A DNA stretch of 63,944 nt, counting the filler, from Lama guanicoe (Eukaryota): the NCBI GenBank assembly GCA_013239625.1. It is 74 parts of 73 records of this genome, joined end to end, with 100 filler letters (N's around TTAATTAATTAA, not from the genome) between each part and the next. Parts side by side here need not be neighbours in the genome. Positions count along the whole stretch, not along the records: positions 47,789 to 48,347 come from PNXV01015912.1; 73 more parts are not named here. One strand, given 5' to 3'. Every line of letters starts with the position of its first letter. The stretch's first letter is position 1. Both the position numbers and the translations under genes were made by a program. The notes beneath the pieces are model-generated. The model had not been told where the DNA came from, did not search any database, and saw only the letters and a list, made by a program, of their open reading frames with translations. This document shows positions 1,136-48,347 of the stretch, piece after piece.

Positions 1136-2192
1136 ACATGAAACCTAATTAGCAATAAAAAACCTCCCTACAGATAAAAGTCCATGACCAGATGGCTTCA
1201 CTGGGGAATTCTACCAACCATACAAAAAGAACTCAAACTAGTTCTACTCAAACTCTTCCAGAAGACTGAAAAAGAGGGAGTACTCCCAAACTCATTCTAT
1301 GAAGCCATCATCACCCTGATGCCAAAACCAGGCAAAGACACTACCAAAACAGAGAATTATAGGCCAGTATCACTGATTAAAATAGATGCAAAAATCCTCA
1401 ACAAAATATTAGCAAACAGAATCCAGCAGCACATAAAACAGTTCACAAACCATGATCAAGTTGGACTCATTCCAGGAACACAAGGATGGCTCAACATAAG
1501 CAAATCAATCAATATAATACACCACATCAAGAGAGAATGGACAAAAAACACATGATCATCTCAATAGATGCAGGAAAAGAATTTGATAAAATTCAACACC
1601 CATTTATGATAAAGACTCTCAACACAGTGGGTATAGAGGGAACATATATCAACATGATAAAAACTATTTATGACAAACCTATAGCCAGCTTAGTACTCAA
1701 TTGTGAAAAACTAAAAACTTTCCCACTAAAATCCGGGCCAACAAAGTCGTCCACTCTCAAAGAAATCAGGAAAAAGAAATAAAAGGGATCCAAATTGGAA
1801 AACAAGAGGTAAAATTGTCACTATATGCAGATGACATGATACTATAGATAGAAAAACCTAAAAGTGCCACACAAAACTACACTACCAGNNNNNNNNNNNN
1901 NNNNNNNNNNNNNNNNNNNNNNNNNNNNNNNNNNNNNNNNNNNNNNNNNNNNNNNNNNNNNNNNNNNNNNNNNNNNNNNNNNNNNNNNNNNNNNNNNNNN
2001 NNNNNNNNNNNNNNNNNNNNNNNNNNNNNNNNNNNNNNNNNNNNNNNNNNNNNNNNNNNNNNNNAAAATACCTAAAATCTAGCCAAGGAGGTGAAAGACT
2101 TATACATAGAGAACTAGAAAACATCAACTAAGGAAATTAAAGAAGACTTAACAAAATGGAAAGATATCCCATGCTCATGTATTGTATTGGAA
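1136..2192 (+). mobile_element. LINE-1 ORF2 fragment (Z domain/RT region), frameshifted
   Basis: Translations [66 protein letters not shown] and LYADDM (about 1821-1838). About 37-40 bp of the RT region is missing near 1755 relative to the copy at 25690-25735. Confidence 0.95.
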
Positions 2193-2983: not shown

Positions 2984-3471
2984 GTTTGTCAGTAGTCTGT
3001 TGGACAACGTCATAAAACATTGATTGAAGGTTACTGGAATGGAATCTATTCTTATTAATATTAAGTAAGCACATACTGAGTGCTTACTGTATGATGGAAT
3101 TGTCCCTCAGCCTCACATGAATATTATTTCTCTTAAAACCTCACATATTTCCTTGTTATTCTCACTTTACATATAAGGAGACTGAGAATTATGTCTTCTC
3201 TCTTTTGTGGGGAGCTCATTATCAATGGCGGGAAATTGTAAGGAAAAAGATATTGATTCATCCTGAGAAAACATTTTTATTAGAGTCAGCAATGAAGATG
3301 AACACTGAAGAAGGTGATGATTTTTCGAGTGAGACAAGCCCTGGGTTTTACGGATTCAGCATCCCTGTCCTGGACACGTAACGTGTTGAAATGCGTGGAG
3401 GGTGAGGCGGGGCAGCCGCGCAGGGAACACGGATGCCGGGTCATTCGGCTGTGCTCAGGCCCAGTGGGGCT
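2984..3471 (+). repeat. Low-copy duplicated segment, paralog of 46498-46979
   Basis: Colinear, same-strand similarity from tttgtcagtagtctgttggacaa to ggtggggctt, with scattered substitutions and small indels. Confidence 0.9.
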
Positions 3472-3868
3472 TTGTCCTAAGGGCAGTGGACCGTCATTGA
3501 CAGATTTTATGTAGGGGAGTGATCGTAGTTCAGTCTTGTAGAGTGCTTGGAAACATTTAGAAGGCTTGGCAGGAGGTGATGAGATGAATCAGAGTAGGGT
3601 GGCTGCGAGGTGTAGCAGTGTTCAATTTTCAAGTGGTTTTCAGTCCCAGGCTTGTGGCTCAGTAGCCGTGTCACTTTGGATAACGCACTCAAGAAGTGAA
3701 ACAATTTATCTAATTAAATCTGTGATGTACCCAATTCCCAGGACTGTTGTGGAGATTCAGTGAGATAANNNNNNNNNNNNNNNNNNNNNNNNNNNNNNNN
3801 NNNNNNNNNNNNTTAATTAATTAANNNNNNNNNNNNNNNNNNNNNNNNNNNNNNNNNNNNNNNNNNNN

Positions 3869-12699: not shown

Positions 12700-13330
12700 A
12701 TGATATCAGCAAGATAGGGGAGTAGGAAGTTTCAGACCCAGGTTCCCCTACAGAAGCATGGAGTTAACAACATATGGCCCAAAGTGCCTTTGGGAGAACG
12801 CCAGATACCAGGTAAGATATTGCAGCTCCCCGGATGAGTGCAAAGCCATAAGGCACTGGGCAGAAGCCAGGAGGAAGGTTCCTTGCATCTGCCCACCACA
12901 CCCTGTCACAGAAAAGCCTGATCTGGATAAAATCGCCAACCCCCAGGCTCATCCCTCCACTCAGAAGAGAAAAAGAAAAGTGCACTGTGAGTCAATGGTA
13001 CAACTTTTCAGAGGGCTACCCAAGGGATGGGTCTCATCTGGCCTGACTCAGAGCACCAACATGATTGGCAGTTTGGGGCCAGGTTGAAGGCCACCAAGAC
13101 ACAATCGGAGAGACCACCTTACTGCAGATGGACACAAAGGAGGAGCAAGAGCTTACATGATCCAGAGAAGGGGGTAAACTTCCTTAGCTGGGGAATATTC
13201 ACACAAGCTCAGAAAAGATACAGCTTCAGAAAAGGTTTTAGATACTCCCCAAATCTCCAGCCAAGCTTACAGTCAAGGTCTTCCCCTGAGTGAAGGTATG
13301 AAGACTGTAAAACTGAGAGGTGTGGCTGTA
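12700..13330 (+). mobile_element. Old LINE-1 5' region (L1M-type)
   Basis: Begins gatatcagcaagataggggagtaggaagtttcag, resembling the CAAGATGGCGGAGTAGGA start of L1M elements. Confidence 0.5.
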
Positions 13331-25308: not shown

Positions 25309-26054
25309 GATGATCATAGACGCCAAATTCTTCACCAAAATTTTAGCAAATAGAATCTGACAACACATAAAAAGATTATACATCATGACCAAGTGGGGTT
25401 CATCCCAGGTTCACAATGCTGGTTCAACATACGCAAATCAATCAATGTAATACATCACATCAACTAGACAAAGGACAAAAACCACATGATCATCTCAATC
25501 AATGCAGAAAAAGCATTTGGTAAAATTCAACACCCATTTATGATTAAAAACTCCCACCAACGTGGGTATAGAGGGAACATATCTCAACATAATAAAAGCT
25601 ATATATGACAAACTTGCAGCCAGCATAGCTCTCAACACTGAAAAACTCAAAAGCTTCCCACTAAAATCTGGGACAAGACAATGATGCCCACTATCACCAC
25701 TCCTATTCAACATAGCCCTGGAAGTCCTAGCCACAGTAATCAGGCAAGAGAAAGAAATAAAAGGGATCCAAATTGGAAAAGAAGCGGTAAAATTGTCATT
25801 ATATGCTGACGACATGTTACTATATATAGAAAACCCAAAAAGGTCCACACAAAAGCTACTGGAGCTGATTGAAGATTTCAGCAAGGTAGCAGGTTACAAA
25901 ATTAATGTTCAAAAATCAGTTGCATTTCTTTACACTAACGATAAATCAACAGAATAAGAAAGTAAGGAAACAATTAGGAAACAATTCCCTCTAACTGGGA
26001 ATAATTCTAACCAAGGAAGTGAAAGAATTATACACAGAAAACTATAAACCATTG
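25309..26054 (+). mobile_element. LINE-1 ORF2 reverse-transcriptase fragment with stops
   Basis: [59 protein letters not shown]. Confidence 0.95.
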
Positions 26055-30633: not shown

Positions 30634-31005
30634 CAGAAACCTCAGTGCTTAGGCTGGTCTTGCCTGTGCATCCGGCCCCCTGTTCAGAGGCTCTTCCTCC
30701 CCTGCAGGAGGAAGTTTCCACTCTCCACAGGGACAACCCCTCAAGGGAGCCCTCTTCTCCCCCTCAGCACGGTAGGTGTCGCGCTGCCACATTAGGACTG
30801 CAGGTGCCCAGGTCTGCTAATCAGACCAGCAGCCTCAGAGCCAGGGATTATGCCCAGGCCACCCTGCAAACCTACTGCACTCTTCACCGTCCCCAGCCAG
30901 CAGAAAGTCACAGCCCCCACCCAATCCAGAAGCCTCTTCATTTGCCAGCACAGCTGATAACTGGTTTCCAATCTTTGGTCAGTTTCGTACAAAAGAGCAC
31001 CTTCA
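30634..31005 (+). repeat. Low-copy duplicated segment, paralog of about 38090-38485
   Basis: Colinear similarity ggctggtcttgcctgtgcatccgg...ccaatc..gaagcctcttcatttgccagcac...agcaccttc with short indels. Confidence 0.9.
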
Positions 31006-31131
31006 AATGTGAAGCAGGAGGTTTGGTTTTCNNNNNNNNNNNNNNNNNNNNNNNNNNNNNNNNNNNNNNNNNNNNTTAATTAATTAANNNNNNNNNNNNN
31101 NNNNNNNNNNNNNNNNNNNNNNNNNNNNNNN

Positions 31132-31892
31132 GGTGACTTTAAGGTGCGGGGGTGGCGATGGCGGAGGTAGAAGACCTGCAGCGCAGGGCCTGTCAATTTG
31201 CTCTCGTCTTCCCCACGACCAATCCTGGGGGCGTCCTCTGCTGCCCAAGAAGCCGGATGCCCGTCTCCAGGTCAGCTTGCTCCTGGGAGACGGGCCCGAT
31301 GAGGTCGAGGGGCAGAAGCAGTTGCGACGGCCTGCTGCCCCGCCTAATGGGGCCACTTCTTCTCCTCTCCCCTGACCTGGCCTGGGGACGTCCTCTCCGG
31401 CGCAAGATTCGCCTGACACCCCACACCCGGTCTGATTGCTCCTGGGAGGTGGGCGCAGTGAGATCAGGAGGTGGAGAGGACAGGGGGCTGCCCCTGGAGA
31501 GCTGGAGGATAAGCACCAATCTCTCTGGAGGCCTGACGTGGGGGCGGCCTCTGCTGCCCCTCGTATCATATTTCCCCGGGGTTGCAGTAGGGTGCGGGGG
31601 CCGCGGGGTGTTGGCGGGGGTATGAAGCCTGCTGCTTGGGAGCAGGGGGTTTAGCTCCCATCTTTTCCGCAGCTTGGCCTGAGGGCAGCCTCTCTTGCTC
31701 CAGGTCGCAAAGCAGTTTCCCTGACAGCTTAGCCACCAGAGGTGGGCAGGATGGGCTGAGAGCACTGAGGCAGCCGCCAAGGCAGCGACGGAGGGGGCTG
31801 TCCCTGGTCAGCTGATCAATTTGTTCCCATCTCAACATTTGTTGCCCCAGTTTCGCAGAACGCCCTTGTCCAGTTTATTCTTCTCCAGGGAN
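31132..31892 (+). repeat. GC-rich degenerate ~155-bp tandem repeat (family E)
   Basis: cctggggg(c/a)g(t/g)cctct anchors at about 31224, 31381, 31537 and 31678; related to the reverse complement of 40668-41110. Confidence 0.65.
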
Positions 31893-32823: not shown

Positions 32824-33257
32824 TCCTCCTCCACCTCCTCCTCCTACTCCTCCTCCACCTCCTATTCCTCCTCCTCCACTTCATCATCCTCCTCATCCAC
32901 CTCCTCCTCCTTATCCACCTCTTCCTCCTCCTTCACCTCCACCTCTTCCTCCACCTCCTCCTCTTCCACCTCCTCCTTCTCCCCCTCCTCCTCCTCCACC
33001 TCCTCCTCTGCAACATTTCCTCTTCCCCTGCCACCTCCACTTCCACCACCTCCTCCACCTCCTCCTCCACCTCCTACTCCTCCAACTTCTCCACGTCCTC
33101 CTCATCCTCATTCTGCACCTGCTTCTCCACATCATCCTCCTCCTCATCCTACACCTCCTCCTCCTCCTCCTCCACCTCCTCCTCCTCCTCCACCTCCTCC
33201 TCCTCCTCCCCCCCCCCCTCCTTCTCCCACTCCTCCTCCTCCCCCCCCCCCCCCTCC
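32824..33257 (+). repeat. (CCT/CCA)n low-complexity pyrimidine-rich tract
   Basis: About 430 bp of TCC/CCA triplets ending in C runs. Confidence 0.95.
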
Positions 33258-36941: not shown

Positions 36942-38089
36942 NNNNNNNNNNNNNNNNNNNNNNNNNNNNNNNNNNNNNNNNNNNNTTAATTAATTAANNN
37001 NNNNNNNNNNNNNNNNNNNNNNNNNNNNNNNNNNNNNNNNNATATTTTAAGACTGTTATGTACCAAAAATTGTGCTTAGGGAATTCAGTGTGTCAGTGAA
37101 TGGATGTCACATAAGATGGTCCTAAGGGAATGTTAGTTATTTTCATTATGCACCATCGATAAAATTGGCTGCACAGACTTGGCCAGGTATCACAGCTACA
37201 GGCACAAGAATTTGACAATGTGTCACTGTGGATCATAGTCACTATTTTACACAGTAAAACAGCTACCTGAGACCACCCATCAGTCAGCCCACCCGACTCC
37301 CCACCCCAAGATCCCTGAATTTATCTGATTTGCTTGCTACCCCTGCTTTTTGGAGAAAGTTGGCAAATCACACAGTCAATGACTGCTAGGTTATGTCCAT
37401 TCCCATTCACTCAATTATCAATTTGCCCCATTTTCATTATCCACTGTGCTGCAAAACATAGACTAATGTTCAGAATATGACAGCAAGGCCTTTCCCGTTC
37501 TACAGTCAGAGAAGCATGAATGTGTCATGTTTAATGTGCCATATGACAATAAGGAAGGCAGGAAAACAGGCTCCTGTGCTTTAAGAAAATTTTTAGTAAA
37601 GACGTTTGAAACTAAAAGTGTTTCTGTTTGACCTTCAGCTAACCAGAAAATTCAATTGACTCCTATTACCCATTCCTCAGGTGTCGTGGTTTGATTGTAT
37701 TAGGCACTTCTTCTTCATCTCCCCAGCATGAATTTGCTCCATCAGCACAGATTGAGTGTCTCCAAGGCTGCTCCGTGTGCATGGNNNNNNNNNNNNNNNN
37801 NNNNNNNNNNNNNNNNNNNNNNNNNNNNTTAATTAATTAANNNNNNNNNNNNNNNNNNNNNNNNNNNNNNNNNNNNNNNNNNNNGCAAAGTCTATAACTC
37901 TGCTCCTCCCTCTGGCGTGATGCCCCAGCTGGGCGGCCCACAGATTTATCTCCTGCTTGCCTGACCAGTCCTTCCCTGTCACTCATAACCCACCACAGTG
38001 TCTGATCCTAGCCTGACTTTTCGGCACCTTTTCCCTCCAGTCTGGCAGGAAGAAGGCTGCTCGGGCCACTGTATGACTTCCGGCTTCCC

Positions 38090-38485
38090 AAAGCCTCTGT
38101 GCTCAGGCTGGTCTTGCCTGTGCATCCGGTCCCCTGCTTAGAGGCTCTTCCTCCCCTGCAGGGGGACGTTTCCACTCTTTGCAGGGACACCCCCTCAGGG
38201 AAGCCCTCTTCTTGCCCACAGCAGGGCAGGTGTCCCACGCCACATGCCGAGCTGCCCCATTAGGACTGCGGGTGTCCAGGTCTGCTAGTCAGACCAGCAG
38301 CCTCAGACCCAGGGATTATGCCCGGGCCACCGTTCAAACCTACTGCCCGCCTCACAGCCCCCAGCCAGCAGGTCACCTAGAAGTCACAGCAAGTGCCCCA
38401 CCCAATCAGAAGCCTCTTCATTTGCCAGCACCGCTGATGACTGGTCTCCAAACTTTGGTCAGTTTTGCAAAAAACAGCACCTTCT
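38090..38485 (+). repeat. Low-copy duplicated segment, paralog of 30634-31005
   Basis: Direct colinear similarity. Confidence 0.9.
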
Positions 38486-39817
38486 ACTACGGGGGTTTTC
38501 GCTTCTGCTCCCCATCCTTACTGGAAACATCGAGGGAAACCAAAAGTCCTTTTCTCAACACTTTTCTAATGACATCCTCCCACCCACAATATTCACATGC
38601 TCAAGAGATTTGCGTCCACATGATTTTGTTTTCCTAACGGTAAGTGGCTCAAAGCACTGCAGGATTTTTTCTTTTTTGAGGGTACTTGTACTCAGTTTAT
38701 CGGCTTTAAGCTGTTTTTGTCTCTCTCTTCAGTATCCCTAGCAGTTNNNNNNNNNNNNNNNNNNNNNNNNNNNNNNNNNNNNNNNNNNNNTTAATTAATT
38801 AANNNNNNNNNNNNNNNNNNNNNNNNNNNNNNNNNNNNNNNNNNNNAGAGGTGAGCCAGAGAAGGGAGGGATGGACCCCAGGTAGAAGAGGGAAGGCATA
38901 AGACACCCATGTAACCAAGGGAGGCAAGGACCCAGGTCAGCCAGGGGAGGGATGGGACCACAGAACAGGAGGCCCACATGGCTCTGTTCATCCCTCCGTG
39001 GCTGGAAGGCCTGTCCTTGTGGAGGGCCTGCTAGGGACTGGGTGAGATGCAGGACCATAGGAAGGAGAGGATGGGGGCCCAGAGGGAAAGGAAGGACACA
39101 CAGCTGGGAATTAGTCACAGGAGGACAGCAGGAGTGCTTTAGTATCTGTACTTTGACTGGAGTCCTGGCAACATTCCCTCTCTTCCTCCCCAATGCCATC
39201 ATCCCCCTACCCAGCCCTGCTTCTCCCCTCACCCATGTATGCGGGGCCAGTCACGTTCCACCTACTTCCTACCAGCTGGTGCAGAAACAATTCCTGGACC
39301 TGAAGGAGGAGTTGGGTGTGCCGGCACCCACCAGTCACAGTGCACCCCATTTGGACTCAAGCACTCGTGAGTCTAATGTTAGCCAAGATGCCAGACACAT
39401 GACCAAGGCCCCCAGCTAGGGGTCAGTGATAAAGACAGCCCACCAGACATTGATTTTGAGGAACTTCTAAGGCACTACTGAGCAGACAGTGGCCTGTTCA
39501 GGACCAAAGGCTTTATTCTCTCTCCAGGACATCACGGTTTCCCTCCATTTCAGACCCTCTCACCTCCCCAGGCTCGAAAGCGCACTGCACGGAGCCTGGG
39601 ACCCAGTGATGCCTCAGTTCTCAGAGAGACGTCTCCTCCTAGGGAGGCCCCAGGCCCAGGGGGTGGGCCCAGTGAGCACAAGGAGGAGCTCCACAGCCTG
39701 GCCTTCCTCTTGGCCTCNNNNNNNNNNNNNNNNNNNNNNNNNNNNNNNNNNNNNNNNNNNNTTAATTAATTAANNNNNNNNNNNNNNNNNNNNNNNNNNN
39801 NNNNNNNNNNNNNNNNN

Positions 39818-40667: not shown

Positions 40668-41110
40668 GCCACCACCAGGCCAGGCCGCGGGGGAGACGGG
40701 AGCAAGATGACCAGAGCGGAGAATCCAGGGCAGGCCCCCTACACACATCTCGGTCACCACCCCCTCACTGTGCAGGCCTCCCAGGAGCAAGCGAACCAGG
40801 AGACATGCCTCCCGTGAACCTGGGGCATTAGAGGCCGCCCCCAGGCCAGGCCGCGGGGAAGGCGGGAACAAATCCCCCGGCTCTCACAGGGTAGCCCCCC
40901 TTATTCCACCTCCACAGCTGCCACACCTGCCATCGTCCCCGCTGCTCCCTGACTGGACCATACAGGGAACCTTCGGCAGCAGAGACCTACCCCGCCAGGC
41001 CGCGGAGGAGATGGGGGCAAATGACTGTCTCCCACTCGGCAGCCCCCTCCCCATGCCGCCAGGGCTACGGCCTCTGCCAACTTCCCAGCCCCCTGGCCGC
41101 ACTGCGCCCG
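40668..41110 (-). repeat. GC-rich degenerate tandem repeat family E
   Basis: caggccgcgg anchors at 40681, 40847 and 40996; reverse complement resembles 31224-31290. Confidence 0.65.
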
Positions 41111-41119
41111 TGGTCTTAC

Positions 41120-41185
41120 TAAAAGTGGGTATAGAGGGAACATGTCTCAACATAATAAAAACTATTATGACAAACCTACAGTCAC
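41120..41185 (+). mobile_element. Short LINE-1 ORF2 fragment
   Basis: aaagtgggtatagagggaacatgtctcaacataataaaaactatt matches the L1 copies at about 1626 and 25561 ([12 protein letters not shown]). Confidence 0.85.
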
Positions 41186-41310
41186 CACAATACCCTACCA
41201 AGAGAGCGGANNNNNNNNNNNNNNNNNNNNNNNNNNNNNNNNNNNNNNNNNNNNTTAATTAATTAANNNNNNNNNNNNNNNNNNNNNNNNNNNNNNNNNN
41301 NNNNNNNNNN

Positions 41311-45000: not shown

Positions 45001-45693
45001 AGGCTCTTCAGGAGCGGCAGGCTCTTCAGGAGTGGCTAGATCAGCAGGACCACCAGGCTCTTCAGGAGCAGCAGGCTCTTGAGGAGCGGCTAGATCAGCA
45101 GGAGCGGCCGGCTCTTCAGGAGTGGCAGGCTGTTCAGGAGCGGCAGGCTGTTCAGGAGCGGCAAGATCAGCACAGGCAGCAGGCTCTGCAGGAGCAGCTA
45201 TATCAGCAGGAGAAGATGGCTGTTCAGGAGCGGCAGACTGTTCAGGAGCGGCAGGCTCTTCAGGAGCGACAGGCTCATCAGGAGTGGCAAGATCAGCAGG
45301 ACCACCAGGCTCTTCAGGAGCAGCAGGCTCTTGAGCAGTGGCTAGATCAGCAGGATCGGCTGGCTCTTCAGGATCGGCAAGCTGTTCAGGGGTGGCTAGA
45401 TCAGCAGGAGCCACAGGCTCTTCAAGAGCGGCAAGATCAGCAGGCTCTTCTGGAGCGGCAGGCTCTTCAGGAGCGGCCTGACCAGCAGGAGCAGCCGGCT
45501 CTTCAGGATCGGCAGGCTCTTCACTAGTGGCAGGCTCTTCAGGGGTAGCTAGGTCAGCAGGAGCAGCAGGCTCTTCAGGTGCGGCAAGCCCTTCAGGAGA
45601 TTCAGGAGTGGCTAGATCAGCAGGAGCAGCCGGCTCTTCAGGATCGGCAGGCTCTTCAGGATCGGCAAGCTGTTCAGGGGTGGCTAGATCAGC
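45001..45693 (-). CDS. Probable coding 18-bp minisatellite: acidic Pro/Ala/Glu repeat (PEEPAA/PADLAT), internal part of a larger exon
   Basis: One - frame is open for all 231 codons (ADLATPEQLADPEEPADPEEPAAPADLAT...PEEPAAPEEP). Length variants are multiples of 3. No start or stop lies within the scaffold. Confidence 0.55.
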
Positions 45694-46497
45694 AGNNNNN
45701 NNNNNNNNNNNNNNNNNNNNNNNNNNNNNNNNNNNNNNNTTAATTAATTAANNNNNNNNNNNNNNNNNNNNNNNNNNNNNNNNNNNNNNNNNNNNTTAAA
45801 CTGTGGTAGGTGAGGGACTTGGCCTGGCCAACCACGCTCTGTGTTTTCATTTCTCTGCTTTACCCAGTTCCACAAATGAGTTTTACTTTGGCTGTTTGGT
45901 CACAAAGACTAAGGGCAAAGTGCTGGAGAAAAAATGTGTTGCACTTTATTGAACCTCAAGCTGCTCAGAAACCATTTGATGGTCTCTTTGAGCAGGATGA
46001 CATTCGGCTCAGTGGAATCAAAGCCGATGCAAGTGGGGGGATCGCCTGGCAGTTACTTCCTTAGCCTTCATGCTGGAGGAGAGTCTCCACCCACCAGGGC
46101 TCCCCCGTTGATGAAGGTGTAGGATGGAGCAATGCGGGGAACTCCTCAGCCTGACCCTCTGCCAGGAAGAACGCTGAGCACAAGAAAGGCCAGAGCTCCC
46201 AGCNNNNNNNNNNNNNNNNNNNNNNNNNNNNNNNNNNNNNNNNNNNNTTAATTAATTAANNNNNNNNNNNNNNNNNNNNNNNNNNNNNNNNNNNNNNNNN
46301 NNNTTTATGTTTCAGGAGATTTGACTAAAGAACACCTGTCTTTATTCAATAATGAGAACTAAATGCTTAAGCAACATTTAAGAGTTTGAGCAAACTGCCC
46401 CCGCCCCGTAGTGCTGGGTGGCTGCAGCTGTAACTGAGTCAGCGCTTACCTCTCCCAGTACGCTTGTGGTGATCTGCTCTAAGGGGCTCGTCCAACA

Positions 46498-46979
46498 ATT
46501 TGTCAGTAGTCTGTTGGACAATGTCATAAAACATTGATTGAAGGTTGCTGGAATGCAATATATTCTTATTAATATAAAGTAAGTACATATTGAGTGCTTA
46601 CTGTATGATGACAGCCTCACATGAATATTATTTCTCTTAAAACCTCTCATATTTCCTTGTTATTCTCACTTTACAAATAAGGAGACTGAGAATTATGTCT
46701 TCTCTCTTTTGGGGGGAGCTCATTATCAATGATGAGAATTTATAAGGAAAAAGATATTCATTCATCATGAGAAAATATTTTTGTGAGAGTCAGCAATGAA
46801 GAAGATGAACATTGAAGAAAGTGATCATTGTTCGAGTGAGACAAGCCCTGGGTTGTGCGGAGTCATCATCCCTGTCCTGGACATGGCATGTGTAGAGCTG
46901 CGTGGTGGGTGAGGTGGCGCGGCCGCGCAAGGAACGCGGATGCTGGGGCCTTAGGCTGTGCTCAAGCCCGGTGGGGCTT
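46498..46979 (+). repeat. Low-copy duplicated segment, paralog of 2984-3471
   Basis: Direct colinear similarity. Confidence 0.9.
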
Positions 46980-47788: not shown

Positions 47789-47981
47789 GCGGTGCCGGGT
47801 GAGGGGGCTGAGGGGGCTGAGGCGGCAACGGCGGCGGTACCGTCTGAGGCGGCTGTTCCGGCTGAGGGGGGCGATGCGGCGGCGGCTGCGGTGCCGGCTG
47901 AGGGGGCTGAGGCCTCGGCAGCGACTGCTGGAAAGACTTGTGGGACTCGAAGGCTTTCGCCAGGTTTTCCAGGGTCGCCAT
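47789..47981 (-). CDS. HTT: Huntingtin exon-1-like coding region, diverged (paralog or pseudogene; truncated by scaffold end)
   Basis: MATLENLAKAFESHKSF-QQ-SLPRPQPPQPAPQPPP... versus HTT N17 MATLEKLMKAFESLKSF (14/17 identical), followed by CAG CAG and a P/Q-rich region; Kozak GCCGCCATGG. Confidence 0.85.
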
Positions 47982-48041
47982 GGCGGCCTCCCGCCCCGCG
48001 TGTACAGCCCCCGGAGTCGCCGGCCGGACCAGCGTCTCCGG

Positions 48042-48107
48042 TCAGCACGGTGGCAGTGAACGGAGCTTGGGGCCGCCAGCCAGTGCGGACCCCAAGCGCG
48101 CGGCCAT
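48042..48107 (-). promoter_or_regulatory. HTT-type 5'UTR upstream ORF, 21 codons (MAARLGSALAGGPKLRSLPPC*)
   Basis: ATG to TGA spans 66 nt, with the same length, position and terminal SLP.C* as the recalled human HTT uORF. It overlaps a YY1-type CAAGATGGCCGC motif. Confidence 0.75.
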
Positions 48108-48347
48108 CTTGGAGCCGTCCCGACAGTCCCCGCGGCCCTGCGTCCTGCCACGCTCCGCCGGTGGGGCGGGGCCGGGCCACGGGATTGACAGCCGGAGGCA
48201 GCGGCTTCCGCCAATGGCTGCCTCGCTCGCCCGTTGGGCTCAAAGAGCCGCCACGGCTCTTGGAGTCACTGCGTTTTTCCCAGCGAGGGGCGGGGGTTTT
48301 GCACGGAGATCGGGAGGGCGGTTCGGGGGCGCTGTTGCAAGGCACGG
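48108..48347 (-). promoter_or_regulatory. HTT-like TATA-less CpG-island promoter
   Basis: CpG-rich; GC boxes GGGGCGGGG near 48163 and 48287; CCAAT at 48211; - strand ccattggc...ggctgtcaatc...gtggcccggccccgcc resembles the recalled human HTT proximal promoter. Confidence 0.7.

What the first reader, a model, noticed from the sequence alone, without database searches (positions are those of the whole stretch)
47789..48347. Diverged huntingtin 5' copy: remodelled N17 (K6N, M8A, L14H) and only two glutamines
Seen: promoter, 5'UTR, perfect Kozak and an open frame MATLENLAKAFESHKSFQQSLPRPQPPQP. Established: HTT is regarded as single-copy in mammals and N17 is almost invariant in vertebrates. K6 is a ubiquitin/SUMO/acetyl site, M8 an oxidation/membrane sensor, and L14 part of the CRM1 export signal. 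Vertebrate HTT normally has at least 4 Q, and artiodactyls have many more. Inference: this is unlikely to be the ordinary HTT allele. It carries upstream promoter sequence, so it looks like a DNA-level duplication rather than a retrocopy. It could be a lineage-specific HTT paralog, or an HTT promoter/exon 1 driving a new chimeric gene, possibly multi-copy since it fell into the unplaced repeat bin. The CpG island and frame are retained, consistent with activity or recent origin.
Basis: partly seen in the sequence, partly recalled or inferred. Interest (0 to 1): 0.85.

Follow-up and report, generated by a model that had tools for sequence, protein, structure and literature searches.

The report
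Amplified huntingtin first-exon copies in camelids
This scrap is one of roughly 10-20 duplicated copies of the huntingtin gene's promoter and first exon that sit beside one normal-looking copy in camelid genomes, with an altered N-terminus, almost no polyglutamine, an expanded proline-rich repeat and signs of being transcribed, although nothing yet shows that it makes a working protein.

Summary
The 559-bp scaffold holds a CpG-island promoter, a 21-codon uORF and an open HTT exon-1 frame with N6, A8, H14 and two Q. It is neither an assembly error nor the orthologue. In 3 of 3 DNA runs laid (three organisms), one low-depth K6/L14 contig sits beside variant contigs about 15-20 times deeper, in both promoter and exon. 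H14 and non-Met8 are majority family traits; K6N marks only a subtype. The proline-rich part is a 9-nt-periodic minisatellite, far deeper than its flanks. The window is camelid. In the one RNA run laid (reproductive system, probably another species), family-type contigs are about 12 times deeper than the K6/L14 contig and fade upstream of the 5'UTR. That is a hint of transcription, not proof. What lies downstream, translation and selection are untested, and the N17 changes fit neutrality. Best reading: an amplified, transcribed HTT-5' duplicon family, probably pseudogenes, possibly a young gene family. Ten literature searches showed no report of it. The scan holds no look-alike on other DNA, but it noted other amplified gene-front duplicons in this genome.

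The parts
47789..48347 (-). Whole unplaced scaffold: one member of a multi-copy family of HTT promoter + exon-1 duplicates
   Evidence: Scaffold limits, GC 73%, CpG o/e 0.90; variant contigs about 15-20 times deeper than canonical-type contigs in 3 DNA runs
48131..48347 (-). Promoter-proximal CpG-island DNA upstream of the apparent RNA start; duplicated along with the exon
   Evidence: GC 0.72, CpG o/e 0.94. X3 record 32 (depth 375.3) against canonical-type record 31 (21.2); X1 record 7 (139.4) and X10 record 14 (51.1) are the low-depth type. RNA run X17 has only depth 21.3 upstream of 48150
47982..48130 (-). 5'UTR (upstream limit approximate)
   Evidence: RNA contig depth in X17 falls from 1122 (48074-48092) to 613, 246, 45 and 21 by 48150; the tool warns that contigs cannot fix a start, so this is a hint only
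48042..48107 (-). 21-codon upstream ORF in strong Kozak context, in frame with and ending 60 nt before the main ATG; positional counterpart of the HTT uORF
   Evidence: A conserved inhibitory HTT uORF with optimal context is described in 10.1101/2022.05.04.490528 (passages); that the human one is also 21 codons is recalled, not from a call
47931..47981 (-). Altered N17: N6 (subtype only), A8 and H14 (family majority); L4, L7, F11, S13 and S16 kept
   Evidence: the three variant motifs occur in none of the rows of the HTT exon-1 alignment file searched in PMC8817008 (many rows lack the first 7 codons)
47925..47930 (-). Remnant polyQ: two CAG codons
   Evidence: cattle, sheep, pig and dolphin rows show much longer Q runs
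47789..47924 (-). Proline-rich minisatellite grown from the HTT proline-rich domain (9-nt period, PQP-type units, 25 of 45 residues Pro); runs off the scaffold end; normal 3' end of exon 1 not reached
   Evidence: Direct repeats spaced 9/18 nt; 18- and 54-nt periods; summed contig depth 34-164 times the flank in DNA runs and 9 times in RNA (inflated by overlapping contigs); 12 of 12 joints with known inserted letters keep frame

Best explanation
In a camelid ancestor a DNA segment carrying the HTT CpG-island promoter, 5'UTR and exon 1 was duplicated away from the gene and then amplified to roughly 10-20 copies per haploid genome, while one canonical-type HTT exon 1 stayed. Freed from HTT's constraint, the copies lost Met8 and Leu14 early (a subtype later lost Lys6), the CAG run decayed to two codons, and the CCG/CAG-rich proline domain slipped into a long minisatellite, which breaks short-read assemblies at this point. 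The inherited promoter still fires in at least some copies, so the family yields RNA. Any peptide would be a disordered Pro/Gln-rich chain behind an N17 that keeps only three of the four hydrophobic residues needed for CRM1 export, so it should no longer be excluded from the nucleus. Most likely these are transcribed duplicon pseudogenes evolving about neutrally. Shown: sequence anatomy, two classes of contigs, depth contrast. Inferred: copy number, order of events, transcription, loss of export, lack of selected function. I hold the architecture alone (amplified DNA duplicates beside one canonical-type locus) at about 0.9; the confidence below is for the whole reading, including 'no selected protein function'.
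For: Canonical-type K6/L14 contigs at low depth in 3 of 3 DNA runs: X1 record 2 (148.8), X3 record 27 (15.7), X10 record 11 (46.2). Matching low-depth promoter contigs: 139.4, 21.2, 51.1. Cleanest single-contig ratios are in X3, 16.2 and 17.7; X1 gives 15-20 and X10 16-17 from summed depths. Window against canonical-type: 13-16% different; against the four nearest family contigs computed: 0-4%, with other family contigs further off (for example 11 in 147 and 14 in 141). RNA run X17: 970 of 1050 depth at codon 9 is on contigs other than the L14 one. All 40 rows shown (of 75) have a share of at least 54% in some run and codon 8 is not among them, so the dominant contigs are inferred not to encode Met8. 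Depth is 897.6 in the 5'UTR against 21.3 upstream. Neutrality: P(4 of 4 changes nonsynonymous) 0.33; P(frame still open) 0.47-0.69. No family protein was found in three word-based searches, an HMMER search of 1.84 billion representatives, an exact look-up or the Atlas (all weak for so short and biased a query). Alpaca has published pseudogene-rich blocks of multi-copy gene fragments (PMC13751797). NES rule from PMC3596850.
Against: The tool states that contig depth is not a copy number and cannot show RNA level, start or strand. No single-copy control and no silent control were laid (one call allowed). The canonical-type contigs were not linked to exon 2 and their codon 8 is not displayed. A second low-depth promoter type exists (X3 record 30, X10 records 13 and 15), so low depth alone does not mean canonical. 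Against 'no function': the CpG island is intact after 13-16% divergence, the Kozak ATG and uORF are kept, 12 of 12 repeat joints keep frame (expected from triplet periodicity alone), and family-type RNA contigs outweigh the L14 one about 12-fold. Only 1 of 6 RNA rows was laid. Its sequences differ from all three DNA runs (48015 and 48021 changes in X17 only), N6 is absent from it, and no family-type contig covers codons 14-20, so this copy itself is not shown to be transcribed.
Confidence: 0.55

Rival explanations
1. A young functional gene family: the HTT promoter and exon 1 drive a Pro/Gln-rich repeat protein, either ending in read-through sequence (HTT1a-like) or spliced to captured exons, expressed in reproductive tissue. 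Loss of Met8, Leu14 and polyQ would have removed export, membrane sensing and aggregation risk.
For: Family-type RNA contigs about 12 times deeper than the L14 contig in a reproductive-system library, including repeat units; A8 and H14 shared by most copies in three organisms; CpG island, Kozak and frame retained; all 12 scored repeat joints in frame, 4 of them in RNA; a similar depth ratio in three organisms.
Against: No translation, downstream exon or selection signal was obtained; N17 changes and the open frame fit neutrality; no database protein was found; the RNA evidence is one run of uncertain host and tissue.
Confidence: 0.3
2. A retrocopy of an HTT transcript with an upstream start (like the marmoset pHTT) that was later amplified by segmental duplication.
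For: A processed HTT pseudogene has arisen in marmoset, and its exon 1 decays fast (PMC8817008); no intron sequence could be checked here.
Against: The copy carries 366 nt upstream of the ATG, about 200 nt beyond where RNA contig depth fades, and canonical-type DNA contigs align along all of it.
Confidence: 0.07
3. It is the sole, divergent camelid HTT orthologue, an allele, or an assembly artefact.
For: No camelid is in the 209-taxon HTT exon-1 list (PMC8817008), so the camelid orthologue was not seen in print; two 5'UTR letters of the window are matched by no contig laid.
Against: Separate K6/L14 contigs occur in 4 of 4 runs laid; variant letters lie on deep contigs in three organisms; X1 alone has three different contigs over 48108-48186, more than one diploid locus gives.
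Confidence: 0.03

Closest known systems
Canonical huntingtin (HTT) exon 1
   Same: Promoter CpG island, uORF, Kozak ATG, 14 of 17 N17 residues, Q codons followed by a proline-rich domain.
   Different: Multi-copy; A8, H14 and in part N6; two Q where PMC8817008 treats vertebrate sets as 4Q or Q>=4 under purifying selection; proline domain turned into a minisatellite; exon end and exon 2 not seen.
Marmoset processed pseudogene pHTT (PMC8817008; section 33 read)
   Same: A second HTT-derived locus whose CAG tract and proline domain decay once constraint is lifted.
   Different: pHTT is a processed copy of exons 1-9 in a CNTNAP3 intron, with a frameshift; this family carries promoter DNA, is amplified, keeps frame over the 64 codons seen and appears in RNA.
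Alpaca pseudogene-rich repeat blocks: NEK10-like, ATF5-pseudogene, 'formin-2-like', ABHD17A-like copies (PMC13751797; parts 1-4 of 8 and the xlsx supplement read)
   Same: Same lineage; 5-19 fragmented copies of single-copy genes in repeat-rich DNA.
   Different: HTT is not mentioned. Untested lead: the ~10 'formin-2-like' copies on chromosome 11 could be this Pro-rich family under an automatic low-complexity name (my inference). That block is reported absent or reduced in camel assemblies. Supplementary figure S5 could not be read.
HTT1a, the exon-1/intron-1 read-through transcript (search listing only)
   Same: An exon-1-only huntingtin product from the native promoter.
   Different: HTT1a is a mis-splicing product of the one gene driven by long CAG; here exon 1 is a separate multi-copy locus without polyQ, and its 3' end is unknown.
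Primate core-duplicon gene families such as NPIP, GOLGA8, TBC1D3 (recalled, not from a call)
   Same: Lineage-specific amplified segments carrying a promoter and first exons, transcribed, often with coding VNTRs.
   Different: For those, translation and in some cases positive selection are established; neither is shown here, and flanking mosaic structure could not be read.

Membership tests
HTT orthologue | Conserved N17 (K6, M8, L14) | tested here: not met
   14 of 17 identical; N6, A8, H14; variant motifs absent from the published alignment file searched
HTT orthologue | At least four glutamines after N17 | tested here: not met
   Two CAG codons; PMC8817008 section 31
HTT orthologue | Single-copy locus | tested here: not met
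   Variant contigs about 15-20 times deeper than the K6/L14 contigs in 3 DNA runs; depth is an indirect measure
HTT orthologue | Exon 1 ends normally and splices to exon 2 and the HEAT-repeat body | not testable with these tools
   Scaffold ends inside the repeat; no genome held; no Pfam huntingtin hit among 148 window ORFs of at least 62 aa
Processed pseudogene (pHTT type) | Begins at or inside the transcript, without promoter DNA | tested here: not met
   About 200 nt upstream of the apparent RNA start is shared with canonical-type DNA contigs; the start itself is only a hint
Processed pseudogene (pHTT type) | Spliced exon junctions, poly(A) tail, target-site duplication | not testable with these tools
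   3' end not available
Segmental-duplication (duplicon) gene-fragment family | Many similar genomic copies that include non-transcribed DNA | tested here: met
   Deep family contigs over promoter and exon in 3 of 3 DNA runs
Segmental-duplication (duplicon) gene-fragment family | Blocks over 1 kb with mosaic flanks | not testable with these tools
   Only 559 bases held
Functional duplicon gene family | Transcribed | tested here: inconclusive
   One RNA run, contigs only, probably another species; 5'UTR depth 897.6 against 21.3 upstream
Functional duplicon gene family | Translated, or under non-neutral selection | tested here: inconclusive
   Changes and open frame compatible with neutrality; no protein record found
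CRM1 leucine-rich export signal of N17 | Four hydrophobic consensus residues (L4, L7, F11, L14) | tested here: not met
   Only L4, L7 and F11 remain; PMC3596850 passages state that four are needed and that three abolish nuclear exclusion in their mutants. Sequence-level test only; L14H itself was not seen assayed

The most novel reading that the evidence does not exclude
Camelids carry a new protein-coding gene family born from huntingtin's promoter and exon 1. It would have some 15 copies, be expressed above HTT itself in reproductive tissue, and encode a long Pro/Gln-repeat protein whose N17 has lost nuclear export and whose polyQ is gone: a naturally evolved, tolerated exon-1-type huntingtin protein, possibly fused to captured exons.
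Probability: 0.25. Interest if true: 0.85.

Novelty: new variant of a known kind. Interest (0 to 1): 0.62.

Why it matters
Huntingtin is treated as a single, tightly conserved gene, and the only extra copy I found in print is a processed marmoset pseudogene. An amplified family with an intact promoter gives many natural replicates of how N17, the CAG run and the proline-rich domain change when constraint is lifted: polyQ shrank while the proline domain expanded. If translated, it would be an exon-1-type protein with natural changes at the residues that Huntington's disease research mutates on purpose. In practice it would confound read mapping, annotation and PCR of camelid HTT. It may also bear on raising anti-huntingtin nanobodies in llamas and alpacas, whose own N17-like self-antigens would be more varied than assumed (inference).

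Tried and rejected
No whole genome was held, so copies and downstream sequence could not be read. Protein searches found nothing. For the 64-aa product: longer proteins, 8000 candidates scored, none at E<=0.01; exact look-up absent; HMMER of 1.84 billion representatives, 0 hits; Atlas, no usable hit. For a 46-aa less-biased query: 31 candidates of 82-2000 aa, none at E<=10, and none of 25-81 aa. Proteins over 2000 aa were outside the three word-based searches. A degenerate N17 DNA pattern found 0 loci in metagenome contigs. No other scaffold of the window resembles this one, and 0 of 148 ORFs hit a huntingtin Pfam model. Five published alpaca satellite primers matched nowhere in the window at up to 3 mismatches; the lineage call rests instead and a by-eye likeness of the ~265-bp satellite to VpaSat16. 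The dip in RNA cover over codons 14-20 is not read as a deletion, because the tool filters human-like contigs. I tried to reconstruct the Q number of the canonical-type contigs from the partial tables and could not. I rejected the open frame and the in-frame repeat joints as proof of coding selection (triplet periodicity explains the joints). Literature: 10 searches and term searches in the main text of PMC13751797, PMC13663546, PMC13526805, PMC7830431, PMC12127551 and PMC6598621 showed no camelid HTT copy. Subscription papers, bioRxiv supplements, 11 of 25 supplementary files of PMC8817008 and annotation databases were not seen.

Full report
Setting. The window is not a chromosome stretch but 74 short scaffolds joined by 73 identical 100-base linkers; 27 of them fall into three satellite classes. 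The finding is one whole 559-base scaffold, so its neighbours say nothing about it. No genome is held. The lineage is camelid: a 34-base motif from the alpaca repeat VpaSat05-8550 (PMC13751797 supplement) matches 45287-45320 with 2 mismatches, against 0 matches in 100 shuffles. The ~265-bp satellite of the window resembles VpaSat16 by eye. Five primers from the same paper did not match.

Observation. On the minus strand an ATG at 47981 in perfect Kozak context opens 64 codons that run off the scaffold. It aligns with PDB huntingtin N-termini at 14 of 17 residues, differing at K6N, M8A and L14H, followed by two Q. GC is 73% and CpG o/e 0.90. One is a 21-codon uORF at 48107-48042 in strong context, the positional match of the conserved inhibitory HTT uORF (10.1101/2022.05.04.490528, passages). 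The other is that codons 20-64 are a 9-nt-periodic repeat, 25 of 45 residues proline, and the normal end of exon 1 is not reached.

Is it real, and is it the orthologue? The run index returned 14 DNA-type holders from five coded organisms at shares of 0.38-0.46 and six RNA runs at 0.06-0.07. I laid three DNA runs of different organisms (X1, X3, X10) and one RNA run (X17) at 80% likeness. Each DNA run shows two classes. One is a low-depth contig over 47926-48047 or beyond: depth 148.8, 15.7 and 46.2, with 15-16% (13% for the longer X3 one) different letters. These account for the L14 letter (X10 has one further small contig with it) and carry K6, which is seen directly in X3 and by subtraction in X10. 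Low-depth promoter contigs match them (139.4, 21.2, 51.1; 13% different). The other class is much deeper and close to the window. In X3, single contigs over the same stretches give ratios of 16.2 and 17.7; summed depths give 15-20 in X1 and 16-17 in X10. X10 record 10 bridges repeat, N17 and 5'UTR with 4 differences in 141, and X3 record 25 is identical over 105 bases. So the variant letters are genomic, and the scaffold is one member of a family beside a canonical-type locus. Limits: the tool warns that depth is not copy number, and no single-copy control was laid. If only one allele of the canonical-type locus was kept, the number halves, hence 'roughly 10-20'. The canonical-type contigs were not tied to exon 2, their codon 8 is not displayed, and a second low-depth promoter type exists (X3 record 30, X10 records 13 and 15).

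Which changes define the family. H14 is the majority state in all three DNA runs (94%, 82% and 65% of depth at 47941). N6 is a subtype: 52%, 92% and 10% of depth in X1, X3 and X10, and 0% in X17. Codon 8 is not among the 40 of 75 rows shown. Every shown row has a share of at least 54% in some run, so I infer that Met8 is a minority state in all four runs. This rests on my reading of how the tool ranks rows.

The repeat. Summed depth over 47808-47921 is 34-164 times the flank in DNA and 9 times in RNA. Overlapping short contigs and unrelated CCG/CAG-rich loci inflate this, but at three positions one letter different from the window holds 89-100% of DNA depth, which points to a homogeneous array much longer than the piece assembled. 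All 12 joints whose inserted letters were listed change length by a multiple of three. Triplet periodicity would give this without selection.

RNA. In X17 (labelled reproductive system, host not named) the L14 contig has depth 79.9, while other contigs over codon 9 sum to 970, a ratio of 12. The depth of bin 47941-47959 is reproduced exactly by these contigs alone (896.9), which supports the inference that the dominant ones lack Met8. Two 5'UTR contigs total 897.6; depth falls through 48093-48149 to a single contig of 21.3 upstream, where DNA runs have deep family contigs. That pattern is hard to get from DNA carry-over and fits transcription from the inherited promoter. Against over-reading: contigs cannot show start, strand or level; no silent control was laid; only 1 of 6 RNA rows was examined; no family-type contig covers codons 14-20. 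X17 also has letters absent from all three DNA runs, so it is probably another species or subfamily. This copy itself is not shown to be expressed.

Function. By the rule in PMC3596850 (passages), CRM1 export needs four hydrophobic consensus residues, L4, L7, F11 and L14; H14 leaves three, so loss of export is predicted, not shown. Selection cannot be claimed: 76% of possible changes in codons 2-17 are nonsynonymous, so 4 of 4 has P 0.33, and an unselected frame of this make-up stays open with probability 0.47-0.69. No protein record was found, which is weak evidence for so short and biased a query. The intact CpG island after 13-16% divergence suggests germline hypomethylation (inference). 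What follows the repeat is unknown, so a full paralogue, an exon-1-only product and a chimera all remain open.

Mechanism and rivals. Most likely: DNA-level duplication of the HTT 5' end, amplification, decay of N17 and polyQ, slippage expansion of the proline domain and continued transcription, with no selected protein (0.55). A functional young gene family is the main rival (0.3); an amplified retrocopy (0.07) and an orthologue or artefact (0.03) are unlikely. The architecture alone I hold at about 0.9.

Comparison and novelty. PMC8817008 (abstract, sections 31, 33 and 37, passages, 14 of 25 supplementary files searched) reports purifying selection on N17 and polyQ and one processed marmoset pseudogene. 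Its 209-taxon list has no camelid, and the alignment file searched has none of the three variant motifs (many rows lack codons 1-7). PMC13751797 (parts 1-4 of 8 and the xlsx supplement) describes alpaca blocks of multi-copy gene fragments without mentioning HTT; its ~10 'formin-2-like' copies are an untested candidate for this family. Ten searches and term searches in six papers showed no report; subscription papers, unread supplements and gene annotations were not seen. Earlier scan notes describe amplified TRAPPC9, POFUT2 and ANO6 fragments in this genome (unchecked), which makes the process ordinary for the lineage; none resembles this sequence. Verdict: a new variant of a known kind, of real interest because the gene is huntingtin and the family seems active. 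Interest 0.62.

Noticed in passing
window 48047-48048, runs X1, X3, X17 (tables 4 and 7): The canonical-type contig of X3 and both abundant 5'UTR contigs of RNA run X17 carry one extra base just before the uORF stop. If the upstream ATG is intact there, the uORF would read on and overlap the main frame in the Ala/Ser/Pro-rich frame (P0001). One X17 type also has compensating +1/-1 indels at 48021 and 48027 inside that frame.
   Followed up: partly
window 48162-48296, X3 record 30, X10 records 13 and 15: Further low-depth promoter types, about 9-11% different from the window and distinct from the canonical-type contigs; they may be older, low-copy HTT-promoter duplicates.
   Followed up: no
window 38886-39715: Fragment of a NUT-family gene (Pfam NUT, E 1.3e-06 and 2.8e-14 in two separate open stretches with a stop between them), probably a broken NUTM-type copy.
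   Followed up: partly
window 45001-45695: An 18/27-nt-periodic repeat matching alpaca VpaSat05-8550, open for 231 codons on the minus strand (Ala/Pro/Glu-rich) and 174 on the plus strand (Gln-rich), with collagen-like Pfam hits in a third frame; a possible coding VNTR inside a macrosatellite.
   Followed up: partly
window 2984-3768 with 46304-46979; 30634-31031 with 37885-38746; 31132-31891 with 40668-41210: Non-satellite scaffolds that resemble each other (88% and 82% for the first two pairs; the third pair falls in one similarity cluster), so further multi-copy families lie in this bin.
   Followed up: no
window, 27 scaffolds: Three satellite classes: a 7/21/63-nt AT-rich one (16 scaffolds), a ~265-nt one (8 scaffolds in its cluster) and a ~247-nt one (3 scaffolds).
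   Followed up: partly
window 1178-1779 and 25685-25954: LINE-type reverse transcriptase fragments (Pfam RVT_1).
   Followed up: no
window 32824-33257: A 430-base TCC-rich simple repeat, open in several frames; probably a microsatellite.
   Followed up: no
window 12704-13290: Two overlapping open stretches of 127 and 100 codons with no Pfam hit; unexplained.
   Followed up: no
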